Shown here piece after piece: positions 5,302 through 26,434 of a stretch of DNA of 64,000 nt. Location: contig JBBIMP010000018.1 of assembly GCA_037444305.1 (NCBI GenBank), positions 1 through 64,000 of the forward strand, in the 5' to 3' direction. How positions within the stretch are numbered: the stretch's first letter is position 1; each line of letters begins with the position of its first letter. A program made the position numbers and the translations under genes. The notes under the pieces are model-generated. The model searched no databases. It saw nothing but the letters and a program-made list of their open reading frames with translations, and was not told where the DNA came from. The DNA comes from Acidobacteriota bacterium. GTDB taxonomy: Bacteria > Acidobacteriota > UBA6911.

Positions 5302-5590
5302 GTCCTTGCCTCACTGGTTACGGGGAATGTCTCATCAGGTGCCGCTTATATTATGCGGGTCTCGATAGCTGGATAGGCCGCCAGTCGGCACCCGCTCAAA
5401 CCATCGAGAATATATCTCTCATAGCACAATGTTGTTTAAAGTCAAACGGTTATGCGGAAGCTGATGGGCGGCATATCCAGCTATGCTGCGAGTTCCGCCC
5501 GCTTAACTGGATAACAAGGGCGAAGTTTTGCTGAATCCCACTGCTCCCTTGGCGGACGGGTTCTGTATACTCCCCCTCGCCGCCACAAAC

Positions 5591-21970: not shown

Positions 21971-22708
21971 GAAGGGTTCCTCCCGGTGTGAATGGCGACA
22001 ATCTTATGCCTGAAAGGGGGGCAAGCGCTACAATTTACGGATGAACAACTTCAAGATCGTGAACGAAAGCGGCGGCCCCTCCATATCAAAAACCCGGGCG
22101 GGAATTGACCGCCAACCTTGTGCTGGAAATCCAACACGCTGCGCTCGACTTGTTGGATTTCAAGCAGTCATGGGTGCCGAGTTCCCCTCTCGCCGCGTGC
22201 CGGGTTGTCCATCCATGTTATTAATAATGTTATAGTTACATCGTCCAGTTCAGCAGAACCGCTGTTTTGGCAAGCCGTTTGCAAGTAATGGTTGGTGTGC
22301 GAGGGGAGACAGCCCTTTTGCCCAATTGCTGTGATAAGCCGCAAAAGCGATAGCGCCGGAAGAGCCGGCAAGGTCGCGGGCAGCCCCCCAGGGCCGTCTC
22401 CCTTGGCAATCTTGATTCGAGGAAGCAACCCGAATTCCAAACCCTCATAACGGTCCAGGATCGGATTTGGACGGCTGCATTTGAAGCTGAGAATCCTAGC
22501 CGTGCCTATATCTGCAGAGCGTGCTTGCCGGCCGGGATTCCACGGAGCCCGGAGCGATAGCGACGGGTCGCGTGGCCTGATTGGGCAATCCGAGCGCATG
22601 CGATGGGATCAACATACTTCCGGCAGACCTTGCCAAAGATTTGTTTCAAAAAAGCGGATACGAAGCCATAATACGGCTTTTGCGGGGATCCGGCTTTGAA
22701 CCCCGCAA

Positions 22709-23812
22709 GTGGGGAGAACCAGGGCAATGTCGCATCCGCTTGAGCTTTCCGGCCAGACGGCTGAGCGTTTTAAGGGATTGAAATACCTGATCGGCAACAC
22801 GCCGATGCTGGCCATCCGCTTTTCATACCGGGGATCGGAGCGGGTGATCTACGCCAAGGCGGAAAGCGCCAACATGACCGGCAGCATAAAGGACCGGATG
22901 GCGTTTCACATTATCCAGCAGGCCTACGCCGAAGGAACTATCAAGCCCGGCGACCAGATCGCCGAGGCGACGAGCGGCAATACAGGCATCGCGTTTGCCG
23001 CCCTGGGACGCGCCCTGGGGCATCCCGTGACGATTTTCATGCCCGACTGGATGAGCCGGGAAAGGGTGGAGCTGATCCGCAGCCTGGGCGCCAGCATCGT
23101 CCCGGTCACCCACGAGGAAGGCGGTTTCCTGGGCAGCATAGCCAAAACCGAGGAGTTGGCCCGGCAGGAGGAAAATGTCTTTCTGCCCAGGCAGTTCTCC
23201 AACGAAGCCAACATCGCTGCCCACGAGGAAACCACGGGCCCGGAGATCTGGTGGCAGCTCAGATTCAGGCAGCTGGAGCCGGACGCTTTCGTCGCCGGCG
23301 TGGGCACCGGGGGAACCGTGATGGGTGTCGGTCGATTCCTCCGGTCGAAGAATCCCTCGATCCGCGTGCACCCCCTGCAGCCCGCCGAATCCCCGACCCT
23401 TTCCGCCGGGCACAAGGTCGGCAAGCACCGGATCCAGGGAATCTCCGACGAGTTTGTCCCGGCAATCGTGAAACTCGACCAACTGGACGAGGTCGTCAGC
23501 GTGAACGACGGGGACGCCATCCTGATAGCGCAGAAGCTGGCGGCGCAGCTGGGTCTTGCGGTCGGCATCTCATCCGGCGCCAATTTCCTCGGAGCCTTGA
23601 AGGTTCAGGAGGAGCTCGGTCCGGACGCCGTGGTGGTCACCGTTTTTGCCGACGACAACAAGAAATATCTCAGTACCGACCTGCTGCGCCAGGAGCCGCC
23701 CAAGGACGGATTTCTCTCGCCGGGAATCGAGCTGCTCGGGTTCGACTCGTTCAAGCGCGTCTGCCAGATCTGCTGTGACCTGCCCGAATGCAACCAGCGC
23801 CTTCCCGGTTGA
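22709..23812 (+). CDS. cysK: Cysteine synthase (PLP-dependent, CysK/CysM-type) with a C-terminal extension
   Basis: ..[16 protein letters not shown].. (PLP lysine), ..[10 protein letters not shown].., ..[12 protein letters not shown]... A probable alternative start is MSHPLEL at 22727. Confidence 0.85.
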
Positions 23813-23928
23813 CAGTGCGGGAAGGGCGTATTGCGCGGTCTTTGGACAAAATCCCCACACAGGCTAAGTACGCCGAAGGAGTCCCACAGAATGCCCAAAA
23901 AAGGCAAACCAAAAGCGAAAAGCAAGTG

Positions 23929-24090
23929 TTACGCCGCGGATTGAATCAGAGACGTGAGCAAGCCTGCGGACGAGATCCTCAAAACCATCGCGAAAGAGGA
24001 TATCAGATACGAGATTTCCACTCTTGTTGGGCATCCCAGATGGGAATGCCGCGGGAAACGCTCACGTCTCGGATTCAATCCGCGGCGTAA
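23929..24090. repeat. 31-bp inverted repeat pair (1 mismatch) flanking 100 bp; a MITE-like or long-hairpin element
   Basis: TTACGCCGCGGATTGAATCAGAGACGTGAGC (23929-23959) versus GCTCACGTCTCGGATTCAATCCGCGGCGTAA (24060-24090). Confidence 0.6.
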
Positions 24091-24157
24091 CAGCACCGGC
24101 GGCGGTCGCCGGAGGCGGTAGAACTTCTCTTGACTCCGAGCGCATTCAGCGCTCGCA

Positions 24158-24508
24158 GTGGAGCAAGGGGGGAGGATGTTGGGAATGCTCAAGAGACATG
24201 AAATCAAGGTTTTACTCAATGCCGGACACTCACAGACTGAAGTTGCCCGCCTGGCCGGCATCTCACTTCGTTCGGTCAAACGCATCGCAAAAGAAGAGGC
24301 CATCACGCATGTCGACGATCATGCTCGGCGCCGGGACTGCGGTATCGGCCAGCCAAACGTGGTTGGGAATTTCCGGAAATCTGTTGTAGCCGTCCTCGAA
24401 AAAGAACCAGGACTGAAGTCGGTCGAGATCCTGCGGCGGATGCGGCTGGAGGGATACAGCGGCGACACCCTTCAGGTTAACTTAGTGGGCGATGAGCGGA
24501 CAGTTTAG
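24158..24508 (+). pseudogene. istA: IS21-family transposase IstA, N-terminal HTH fragment (truncated)
   Basis: MLGMLKRHEIKVLLNAGHSQTEVARLAGISLRSVKRIAKE...EILRRMRLEGYSGD matches the IstA N-terminal HTH region. The ORF stops after about 116 aa, whereas full IstA is about 390 aa, and no istB follows. Confidence 0.55.
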
Positions 24509-24656
24509 GCAATGGAGGTGAGGGCAACGAAAATGTTGTTGGCATACCGTTTTTAAGCAGGGTAGCTTCCAGTCAAGCGGGTGGGTTTTGATGCCGCGTC
24601 TCCCGCGAATTCATCCAACTCAGCCGGCGGACATATTCGTTGCAAGCAGCGCAAGC

Positions 24657-24893
24657 TTACAGATCGTAGTGTTTGTACAAGGTATCGATTTGGCCCGCTA
24701 CAACAACCGCCACGGCCCCCTTTTGGATTCGGTTGAGAGAACGGATAACCTCTCGGACCCTTTTCCCGGACAGCCTGTACTTTGTCGCGCCTCCCGGAGC
24801 ATTTTCGGGCAGGCCAAGAGCTAGAACAAGTTCCACATCCAGCTTATGGAACCCCCTCTGCCTCATGCGCATCTCAGCGTGTTTTGAAAGCAT
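24657..24893 (-). CDS. DUF4258-family protein (toxin-like small protein)
   Basis: 78 aa starting MLSKHAEMRMRQRGF..., with the H-A-x2-R-M-x-E/Q-RG motif characteristic of DUF4258. Confidence 0.55.
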   Translation of the reverse strand: MLSKHAEMRMRQRGFHKLDVELVLALGLPENAPGGATKYRLSGKRVREVIRSLNRIQKGAVAVVVAGQIDTLYKHYDL

Positions 24894-24928
24894 TTTTTCA
24901 TACCTCCAATGGATGAAGGCAAAGGCGA

Positions 24929-25663
24929 TTAATCACACTCCTGCGATTCTTTATTCTCAAAGAACTTGCGTTTCTCAATGGCGTCAACCAATCTCTTGAC
25001 CCAATAAATCCCAGGAACTTTGAGATTCTTAAGAGTGTCCTGCAGATCTCCAGAAGACTGATAAACATTGTCGCATGCGCGCTCGAAATCTCTGGCCTTT
25101 GACAAGACATTTTCTTTGTCTGCCTCTGTAATAAGCTCTTTTTTGAGCAGATCGTCGAGGTGCTTTTTCACTACATCGTATGCAATAAAGCCTGTGAGGT
25201 TTTCGACGACATCGAGAGCACTTGGATTGCTGCTCAGCACTATTTCCAGTGCATTACATGGTGTGAATTCCAGAGCGTTGATGTAGCATTCTAGGAAGTC
25301 CCGCTTAGATCCAACAAGGTACTTGATGAGATTAATGTGACGGACAACATCGACGGGGTAGAATCCAACGGAGCCCCTTTCCGTCTTCCGAATATTGCTG
25401 GTTCCCGATATCAGTTTCATCCCCACATATTTTTTGAAGGTGGGCGCTTTGACCACCATCCCCTTCTTGGCAAGAAGTTCCTGGATTTCTTTAAAAGTCA
25501 AACCCCGCTCTTGGTGCCTTTTTTCGAGCTCATCTAACTCATGCGATGTGAAGTAGCAGGAATGGGTAGCCAAGGATCTACGGTATTGTGGATCATTGAC
25601 GATGGTTCTTGATAGTACATCTCGAAGTTCGGCGTGTTGTTTTGCAAGATCATCTAGTCTCAT
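24929..25663 (-). CDS. Hypothetical 244-aa protein in an AT-rich islet
   Basis: A long ORF in a region of about 42% GC against a 65% GC background. Lys/Glu-rich. It is the upstream partner, 35 bp away, of the DUF4258 gene. No family recognised. Confidence 0.5.
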   Translation of the reverse strand: MRLDDLAKQHAELRDVLSRTIVNDPQYRRSLATHSCYFTSHELDELEKRHQERGLTFKEIQELLAKKGMVVKAPTFKKYVGMKLISGTSNIRKTERGSVGFYPVDVVRHINLIKYLVGSKRDFLECYINALEFTPCNALEIVLSSNPSALDVVENLTGFIAYDVVKKHLDDLLKKELITEADKENVLSKARDFERACDNVYQSSGDLQDTLKNLKVPGIYWVKRLVDAIEKRKFFENKESQECD

Positions 25664-26434
25664 ATTAGTTATCCCTCCAGGGTTATAATAGCTCTCATAG
25701 CTATCGAATAATATACTGCAGTATAATTCATGTAACGTAGCCTGTCAACAATTTTTTTAGAAAGGGCTATCAAGATGCCTTGCTGCGAGGTCGTGGAATT
25801 CGGGCTGTGATTTCCGAAGACGGCTTATAATTTGAAAATAATATATTTAGAGGATTGCAGCTACAGCATGGCTGGCTAGCGCTAACTGCTCGTAATGGAG
25901 TGGAACGACCTAGCCGGCGAGACCTTCAAATTCAATTTTCCCCATGTGTCGATTCTCGCCCTATTTCCCCAATCCCATTCTCAGAAGCTATCCCCCCTTC
26001 AGCTCGACATCGTCTTAGCCGTTTTTGCAACAATGGCAATCTTTTGGTCCATTTTTGTCTGGTGTCGATTTCGCTTTATCCAATGCCGAAGTCGGATAAA
26101 TGCTCTTCATCATCCCGTCTCTCTGTTAGCTTTTGTGTTTCTGGATTGCGGGCAAAAGTCCGACTGGCTGGTGTCGCGACATTCACCGTTTTCGGCTCGG
26201 CCGGCAGGCCCTGAAATTCCTTGTCCACTTCCTCCAGGACCTCCACAAACCGGTTCATGTGGGCGACAACGGCGACCGGGGCAGAAACGACCTGCAACTG
26301 CGTTTTTTTCAATGTCGGCACAAACCTGCACCGGCTGCTGAAGCATACTCCGCCCTGGTCGCCTAATCTCGGTCCCACACGACCGGCAAACACAGGGAGG
26401 GACCACTGGCACTGAGGACCTGACACCATATTCT

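What the first reader, a model, noticed from the sequence alone, without database searches (positions are those of the whole stretch)
23813..24508. 31-bp inverted-repeat element next to a truncated IS21 istA: a mobile-DNA scar marking the left edge of an AT-rich islet
A near-perfect 31-bp inverted repeat (1 mismatch in 31) bracketing 100 bp is far beyond chance in 64 kb. It could be a MITE, the paired ends of a decayed IS, or an unusually long terminator for cysK. It is followed by the first 116 codons of an IS21-type IstA and then by a drop in GC content. This is consistent with an IS-mediated insertion that brought in the downstream cargo (24.6-26.4 kb).
Basis: seen in the sequence. Interest (0 to 1): 0.55.

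Follow-up and report, generated by a model that had tools for sequence, protein, structure and literature searches.

The report
Orphan inverted-repeat element beside dead IS21
A real 166-bp element with 33-bp inverted ends lies directly against a dead fragment of an IS21-type jumping gene, at the left edge of a 2.5-kb block of foreign, low-GC DNA; this is ordinary mobile-DNA debris, not a new kind of system.

Summary
The arms at 23927-23959 and 24060-24092 are 33 nt long with 1 mismatch and 100 nt between them, which is far beyond chance. The ORF at 24185-24508 is the N-terminal HTH part of an IS21-family IstA. GC content falls from about 0.63 to 0.39-0.48 downstream.

The inverted repeat is not the IS21 end. 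Four relatives place that end at TGCGGGTTCCGAAAATTCTGGCACCAAC-TCTTCCGGAAATTCTG|GCACC, that is, two direct repeats L1 and L2. The window's IS21 homology begins at GCACC (24093), the base after the right arm, and stops at about 24464. The IS21 piece is therefore a 372-bp internal fragment with no termini, no catalytic domain and no istB. It cannot have carried the cargo in its present form.

The inverted-repeat element has TG...CA tips, no target-site duplication and no credible ORF. No second copy turned up in the window, GTDB representative genomes, JGI metagenomes, IMG/VR, plasmids or 5.8 billion protein clusters. It is not a terminator.

An independent Logan assembly breaks at 23927-23956 and 26378-26407. 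The block that starts at the left arm therefore behaves as one variable unit.

My best reading is an orphan MITE-like relic in a nest of mobile-DNA debris. Interest is low.

The parts
22727..23812 (+). CysK/CysM-like PLP enzyme (361 aa). Native flanking gene on the left.
   Evidence: Pfam PALP E 8e-72. NCBIfam cysKM 315 bits. GC 0.62.
23813..23926 (.). Spacer between cysK and the element. It is A-tract rich near the junction and contains a 17-codon Lys-rich ORF (23891-23944) that runs into the left arm.
   Evidence: Read directly from the sequence. GC 0.53. No resemblance to the missing IS21 left end (my own base-by-base comparison).
23927..23959 (+). Left arm (terminal inverted repeat), TGTTACGCCGCGGATTGAATCAGAGACGTGAGC. 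It contains a partly dyad-symmetric 25-nt core at 23931-23955.
   Evidence: Logan contig L004 starts exactly at 23927 and overlaps the cysK contig L011 by 30 nt, 23927-23956.
23960..24059 (.). 100-nt interior of the element, non-coding.
   Evidence: The 55-aa and 100-aa ORFs across it have no Pfam, PHROG or PADLOC hit. No frame has a homolog among 5.8 billion clusters. No Rfam match.
24060..24092 (-). Right arm (terminal inverted repeat), 32/33 complementary to the left arm. Its outermost base abuts the IS21 fragment.
   Evidence: blastn homology to the IS21 relative L005 begins at 24093.
24093..24464 (+). IS21-family remnant. It comprises the second half of repeat L2 (GCACC...), the istA leader with an anti-SD structure, and IstA codons 1 to about 93 counted from ATG 24185. 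The first ~44 nt of the IS (L1 plus half of L2) and everything after the HTH region are missing.
24185..24508 (+). The 107-aa ORF as called (116 aa from GTG 24158). The last ~14 codons (24465-24508) are unrelated read-out after the break.
24657..24893 (-). 78-aa ORF with a weak DUF4258 match. Cargo.
   Evidence: Pfam E 3.8e-4, below the cut-off. Called as a gene in the NCBI and Logan records.
24929..25663 (-). 244-aa cargo protein of unknown function, with a weak MerR-like winged-helix resemblance. GC 0.45.
   Evidence: The homolog in L097 also lies in a low-GC patch.
25664..26407 (.). Non-coding right part of the block. It is AT-rich up to about 26100. The block ends at the second assembly-graph node, 26378-26407, which is 28 nt before the stop of the native 518-aa gene.
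23927..26407 (.). The whole 2481-bp block. It forms a single Logan contig and is linked to both neighbours by 30-nt (k-1) overlaps.
   Evidence: k = 31 and graph-linked contigs per PMC12424806.

Best explanation
The inverted repeat is the pair of terminal inverted repeats of a 166-bp non-coding transposable-element relic. It is either MITE-like or an internally deleted IS of the DDE type with TG...CA tips. It lies with its right tip joined directly to the interior of the left end of a different, dead IS21-family copy.

The IS21 copy has lost its first ~44 nt (repeat L1 and half of L2) and everything beyond IstA residue ~93. It therefore cannot bind or cut its own ends and cannot move.

The element, the IS21 stump and a low-GC two-gene cargo together form one 2.5-kb foreign block between cysK and the Band_7/518-aa operon.

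Shown: the anatomy, the exact junctions, the IS21 identity and both truncation points, the lack of a target-site duplication, and the block-wise behaviour in an independent assembly graph.

Inferred: the element once transposed (or was mobilised in trans) into or next to the IS21 end. A later adjacent deletion or recombination then removed one original flank, which explains the missing duplication and the missing L1/half-L2. Nothing in the patch is active now.
For: The 33-nt arms match 32/33 and are unique and non-random. The tips read 5'-TG...CA-3'. No coding capacity or RNA family was found in the element.

The right tip at 24092 coincides to the base with the start of IS21 homology at 24093. 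Four relatives fix the IS21 terminus and the L1/L2 repeats upstream of that point, and their flanks diverge immediately before TGCG. A joint between a transposon tip and unrelated target DNA is what an insertion produces. A fold-back duplication at a break in IS21 would instead have made arms out of IS21 sequence.

The left tip at 23927 is exactly where an independent Logan contig begins. IS21 identity is supported. IstA needs two complete direct repeats per end (PMC10122671), so the stump is immobile. The whole 23813-26407 stretch has lower GC than the window.
Against: There is no target-site duplication; the flanks read ...AAAGCAAG | GCACCGG.... Only one copy was seen in 64 kb. Neither 21-mer half of the arm matched JGI metagenomes. 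The outer half also had no match in GTDB representative genomes or IMG/VR, and PLSDB plasmids gave no blastn hit to the region. No parent transposase was found. So two defining MITE features, multiple copies and a target-site duplication, are unmet or untestable. ISfinder could not be queried. The rest of this MAG, including contig bases 64001-75269, could not be read.
Confidence: 0.5

Rival explanations
1. The palindrome is a by-product of the rearrangement that truncated IS21 or brought in the block, for example a template switch or fold-back repair. It was never mobile and has no function.
For: It is a single copy everywhere searched. There is no target-site duplication. It lies exactly at a rearrangement joint.
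Against: The arms are not IS21 sequence and not a copy of either flank. Both arm tips end cleanly with TG/CA. The Logan graph node starts exactly at the outer base of the left arm.
Confidence: 0.2
2. It is a functional structured element. One form is a long RNA or DNA hairpin, serving as a 3'-UTR stabiliser or RNase III site for cysK, or as a barrier to antisense transcripts from the cargo genes. The other form is a pair of operators, since each arm carries a 25-nt partly dyad-symmetric core and the centres are 133 bp apart, bound by one of the neighbouring HTH proteins.
For: The fold is very stable (-112 kcal/mol, z -10). Each arm has 9-10 of 12 dyad matches. A T-rich tract follows the hairpin on the minus strand. 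Two HTH-type ORFs lie nearby.
Against: There is no Rfam family and no terminator-like or promoter-like site. The loop is 100 nt. The single arms fold weakly, -1.3 to -7 kcal/mol. The IstA HTH would be expected to recognise TTCCGGAAATTCTG-type repeats, not this motif. No relatives exist to test conservation or covariation.
Confidence: 0.15
3. It is a REPIN-like doublet: two inverted REP-type palindromic units that would be mobilised by a RAYT (Y1/HUH) transposase encoded elsewhere in the genome.
For: It has two inverted units, each partly palindromic, in an extragenic position just downstream of a gene, with no target-site duplication.
Against: The single-arm hairpins are weak or absent. There are no other singlets or doublets in 64 kb, even with a degenerate pattern. 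The GTAG-type motif typical of REPs (from my own knowledge) is absent. No RAYT was seen among the genes with Pfam calls in 4-38 kb.
Confidence: 0.08
4. One reading: the inverted repeat is the pair of decayed ends of the adjacent IS21, and that IS delivered the cargo.
For: The inverted repeat, the istA fragment and the low-GC DNA are adjacent.
Against: The relatives' IS21 terminus and L1/L2 repeats are unrelated to the arm. The window's homology begins only after the right arm. IS21 ends carry direct repeats, not an inverted pair 100 nt apart (PMC10122671). No second IS21 copy, istB or right end is present.
Confidence: 0.04

Closest known systems
Bacterial MITEs such as Correia/NEMIS (Neisseria), ERIC/IRU and RUP
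   Same: Size of about 100-170 bp, non-coding, long terminal inverted repeats, intergenic position just downstream of a gene, and the ability to fold into a long hairpin if transcribed.
   Different: Those families have tens to hundreds of copies per genome, a target-site duplication and, in several cases, a known parent IS. Here I found one copy, no duplication and no parent.
IS21 family (IS21, IS5376): istA plus istB, with ends built from direct repeats L1/L2 and R1/R2 and a terminal CA
   Same: The ORF is homologous to the IstA N-terminal HTH region. The leader and half of L2 are retained. Relatives show L1/L2 spaced 24 bp apart, against 23 bp reported for IS21 (PMC10122671).
   Different: Only 372 bp of an element of about 2.5 kb survive. 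There is no terminus, DDE domain, IstB or right end. The 33-nt inverted repeat is not part of it.
REPIN/BIME (REP doublets mobilised by RAYT)
   Same: An inverted doublet of partly palindromic units, extragenic, with no target-site duplication.
   Different: The unit hairpins are weak, there are no further copies in 64 kb, and no RAYT was seen.
Solo IS ends and nested IS debris at the edges of genomic islets
   Same: Truncated transposase genes, abutting element ends without duplications, and lower GC than the host.
   Different: Nothing essential. I consider this the category it belongs to.

Membership tests
MITE | Small non-coding unit (under about 600 bp) | tested here: met
   166 bp. ORFs across it have no homologs or domains.
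MITE | Terminal inverted repeats | tested here: met
   33 nt, 32/33 complementary, TG...CA tips.
MITE | Target-site duplication flanking the unit | tested here: not met
   The flanks are AAAGCAAG and GCACCGG, with no direct repeat.
MITE | Multiple dispersed copies in the genome | tested here: inconclusive
   One copy in 64 kb. None in GTDB representatives, JGI, IMG/VR or PLSDB. The rest of the MAG could not be read. The Logan graph node at the arm tip hints at another context.
MITE | Inverted repeats shared with an autonomous parent IS | not testable with these tools
   ISfinder was not available. No protein match to any frame.
IS21 family | IstA with N-terminal HTH plus DDE catalytic domain | tested here: not met
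   Only NF033546 positions 2-88 are present. tblastn with a relative's catalytic part finds nothing in the window. The homology by descent is nevertheless clear.
IS21 family | IstB AAA+ helper gene downstream | tested here: not met
   The next genes are a 78-aa and a 244-aa ORF on the other strand with no ATPase domain.
IS21 family | Ends with two direct repeats (L1/L2, R1/R2) and a terminal CA | tested here: not met
   Relatives have them. The window keeps only the GCACC half of L2, and the 20-nt repeat has no match in the window at up to 3 mismatches.
REPIN | Each unit is a stable imperfect palindrome | tested here: inconclusive
   9-10 of 12 dyad matches, but DNA folds of only -1.3 to -7 kcal/mol.
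REPIN | Many extragenic copies and a cognate RAYT | tested here: inconclusive
   No further copies in the window. No RAYT among the annotated neighbours. The whole genome was not available.
Intrinsic terminator | Short GC-rich hairpin with a small loop followed by a U-run | tested here: not met
   The scan found none in 23500-25000. The loop is 100 nt, and GCACCGGCGG follows the right arm.
Composite transposon / IS-delivered cargo | Cargo bracketed by two IS copies or by a matching pair of ends | tested here: not met
   No repeat of the arm or of IS21 sequence at or near 26.4 kb.

The most novel reading that the evidence does not exclude
The 2481-bp block that begins exactly at the left arm tip (23927-26407) is a still-variable unit present in more than one context in the source community. 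On this reading, a tiny inverted-repeat element of a so far unsampled family carries or marks a mobile regulator-plus-small-ORF cargo. That cargo's 244-aa protein family recurs in low-GC patches of unrelated genomes.
Probability: 0.12. Interest if true: 0.4.

Novelty: new member of a known kind. Interest (0 to 1): 0.15.

Why it matters
It matters mainly for annotation. The 107-aa 'hypothetical protein' is a dead IS21 IstA stump. The 166-bp palindrome is an unannotated repeat element. The 23927-26407 stretch is foreign DNA in an otherwise native cysK to Band_7 neighbourhood of a poorly sampled lineage. If further copies of the element exist in this MAG, they would define a new small repeat family useful for strain typing in that lineage. 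I see nothing that bears on an open biological question.

Tried and rejected
- **Copies of the arm.** I scanned GTDB representative genomes, JGI metagenomes (both halves of the arm) and IMG/VR for exact matches, and ran blastn of 23880-24520 against PLSDB. All came back empty.
- **Parent transposase.** I used a protein search as a proxy for DNA, giving it four reading frames of the element to catch a parent transposase or ORFs called in other copies. Nothing scored.
- **Empty-site comparison.** CysK relatives in GTDB representatives reach at most 75% identity, are spread over many phyla and share no neighbours. The 518-aa neighbour's closest relatives are 41% identical. They conserve only the Band_7/518-aa pair, not what lies downstream. 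No empty site could be recovered.
- **Known RNA families, terminators and promoters.** Rfam at a permissive threshold over 22-27 kb gave only a chance snoRNA hit. The terminator and promoter scans found none. The window has no tRNA, so there is no obvious integration site.
- **Tandem IS21 junction.** I considered that the inverted repeat might be an IS21 tandem junction (R2 R1 | L1 L2), or that the window's IS has its own divergent L1/L2. I rejected both. The relatives' repeats are near-identical to each other, are unrelated to the arm, and are cut mid-repeat at 24093.
- **Residue of the missing IS21 end.** I looked for the missing IS21 left end to the left of the element and found random-level identity only (one search compared).
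- **Cargo protein.** An exhaustive HMMER search, Pfam scans of family members, an AlphaFold model (pLDDT 94) and a PDB fold search gave only a weak MerR-like resemblance. PADLOC and PHROGs gave nothing.

Full report
**Source.** The window is the first 64 kb of contig CAZIEJ010000014.1 (75,269 bp) of the MAG GCA_964538715.1, with identical coordinates. The same genes also occur on Logan contigs of run SRR11582151.

**Observation.** The repeat finder gives arms at 23927-23959 and 24060-24092. They are 33 nt long and 97% complementary, with 100 nt between them.

The 33-mer occurs nowhere else in the window at up to 3 mismatches, and none of 100 dinucleotide shuffles produced a match. It is the outstanding short-range inverted repeat of the whole 64 kb. 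As RNA the region folds at -112 kcal/mol with z = -10.

GC content falls to 0.39-0.48 between 24.8 and 26.1 kb. The whole stretch 23813-26407 lies below the window mean of 0.63.

**The ORF.** The ORF 24158-24508 is called as 107 aa from ATG 24185. It matches the NCBIfam IS21 transposase model at profile positions 2-88 with E 2e-6, and a PHROG transposase family.

Its 28 database homologs apart from the protein itself align over the HTH region. Where their contigs allow, they continue into ...ALYSLIASVRPKD-KPLVRFEGLPGEFSQHDFGQVDVEYLDG...RFFASRLKYSR. These continuations score as IS21 IstA: P0008 covers profile 2-192 with E 2e-28, and the L005 piece covers 98-292 with E 3e-42.

The window protein follows the family up to GYSG and then diverges. 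blastn homology to L005 ends at 24464. tblastn with a relative's catalytic part finds nothing in the window. The gene is therefore truly truncated, not frameshifted.

**The true IS21 end.** In four independent relatives (L005, L006, L007, L010) the sequence upstream of istA is conserved back to 5'-TGCG(G/A)GTTCCGA(A/G)AATTCTGGCACCAAC TCTTCCGGAAATTCTGGCACCACC. The flanks become unrelated immediately before TGCG.

This is the IS21 layout: a TG tip and two direct repeats L1/L2, here 24 bp apart. PMC10122671 describes L1/L2 and R1/R2 direct repeats 23 bp apart, a terminal CA and 5-bp duplications. It also reports that IstA needs two complete repeats per end.

In the window, homology starts at GCACC, base 24093, which is the base right after the right arm. 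The first ~44 nt of the IS (L1 and the first 14 nt of L2) are absent. They are not found to the left of the element, and the 20-nt repeat has no match anywhere in the window.

The IS21 piece is therefore a 372-bp internal fragment, 24093-24464. It has no terminus, no DDE domain, no istB and no right end. It keeps its leader, including an anti-Shine-Dalgarno pairing that is conserved with compensatory changes among relatives.

**What the inverted repeat is.** It is not IS21 sequence. Its features are:
- tips that read TG...CA;
- no target-site duplication;
- no Rfam family;
- no terminator or promoter signature;
- ORFs without domains or homologs.

Each arm contains a partly dyad-symmetric 25-nt core, ACGCCGCGGATT-G-AATCAGAGACGT, with 9-10 of 12 matches. 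Single arms fold poorly, at -1.3 to -7 kcal/mol, so a REP-like reading is weak.

The right tip is joined to the base with the interior of another element's end. That is what a transposon insertion joint looks like. A fold-back repair of a break in IS21 would have made arms out of IS21 sequence. I therefore favour a small DDE-type element relic, either MITE-like or an internally deleted IS. The missing duplication and the missing L1/half-L2 are then explained by a later adjacent deletion or recombination. That last step is inferred.

**Copy number and relatives.**
- The outer 21-mer of the arm has no exact match in GTDB representative genomes, JGI metagenomes or IMG/VR.
- The inner 21-mer has none in JGI metagenomes.
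- blastn of 23880-24520 finds nothing in PLSDB.

The lineage itself is essentially unsampled. The best CysK relatives are at most 75% identical and not syntenic. The 518-aa neighbour's best relatives are 41% identical, and they conserve only the Band_7/518-aa pair.

**Independent assembly evidence.** Three Logan contigs of SRR11582151 tile the region at 99.99-100% identity:
- L011 = 22578-23956;
- L004 = 23927-26407;
- L013 = 26378 onward.

The overlaps are exactly 30 nt. Logan graphs use k = 31, with all 31-mers distinct and contigs linked in the graph (PMC12424806). Both edges of the 2481-bp block are therefore branch nodes, and at least one other path exists at each.

Two readings fit. In one, the sequence starting at the arm tip 23927 occurs in a second context. 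In the other, a haplotype differs between 23957 and 26377. I cannot tell them apart without the reads.

Both readings say that the inverted-repeat element, the IS21 stump and the low-GC cargo form one variable block whose left edge is the left arm.

**Cargo.** The cargo is a 244-aa protein (24929-25663, minus strand) followed by a 78-aa ORF with a sub-threshold DUF4258 match.

The 244-aa protein belongs to a small family: 115 representative clusters, the protein's own among them, at E <= 1e-3. It has no Pfam domain at threshold. It models confidently (pLDDT 94) but has no significant PDB fold match; the best is MerR-like at E 0.18. A 38%-identical homolog in an unrelated MAG also lies in a low-GC patch, 0.39-0.42 against 0.57-0.60. 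That fits a horizontally moving module.

**Verdict.** The locus is a nest of mobile-DNA debris: an orphan 166-bp inverted-repeat element, a doubly truncated IS21 fragment and a small foreign cargo. I see no evidence of current activity or of a new mechanism.

The kind is known, and the element itself has no known relatives. Interest is low. The main open point is whether more copies of the element exist in the rest of the MAG and what the third graph path in SRR11582151 is.

Noticed in passing
window 24093-24184, and L005:1693-1786, L006:4512-4606, L007:1546-1627, L010:140-234: The istA leader of this IS21 subgroup has a conserved structure. A hairpin lies right after L2, and a pyrimidine stretch (window 24124-24131, CTTCTCTT) pairs with the Shine-Dalgarno GGGGGGAG (24167-24174). 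Five pairs show compensatory changes. This looks like translational sequestration of the transposase start.
   Followed up: partly
window 24929-25663 (-), and L097:1547-2227: The 244-aa cargo protein belongs to an uncharacterised family of about 240-aa proteins (115 representative clusters, its own included). Its AF2 model is confident (pLDDT 94) but has no significant PDB fold match, only a weak MerR-like winged helix. In two unrelated MAGs the gene lies in a low-GC patch.
   Followed up: partly
window 25712-25725 and 25688-25704: A perfect 14-bp palindrome, TATACTGCAGTATA, lies 49 nt upstream of the 244-aa gene's start. A second inverted repeat, ATAGCT-N5-AGCTAT, lies next to it. These are possible operator sites in the AT-rich promoter region.
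   Followed up: no
window 23891-23944: A 17-codon lysine-rich ORF (MPKKGKPKAKSKCYAAD) has GGAG 9 nt upstream, and its last codons and stop lie inside the left arm. It could be the N-terminus of a gene interrupted by the insertion, or it could be chance.
   Followed up: no
window 24371-24383; L005:1964-1977: A near copy of the IS21 L2 repeat core (TTCCGGAAATCTG) lies inside the istA coding region at the conserved NFRK codons. In L005 it forms a perfect 14-nt inverted repeat with L2 (I4).
   Followed up: no
alignment A1 (proteins P0005, P0006, P0010, P0016, P0018, P0021 and others): Many database homologs of this IstA lose the frame at almost the same place, just after GY(S/T)GGK. In L005 the rest continues in the -1 frame. 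The likely causes are homopolymer assembly errors or pseudogenes. Programmed frameshifting was not examined.
   Followed up: no
window 5365-5395 / 5454-5484: This is the second-best short-range inverted repeat in the window: 31 nt, 81% complementary, with a 58-nt spacer.
   Followed up: no
window 22556-22577: The Logan contigs leave a 22-nt gap here, just upstream of cysK, between L002 (ends 22555) and L011 (starts 22578). This is another discontinuity in that assembly and has no explanation so far.
   Followed up: no
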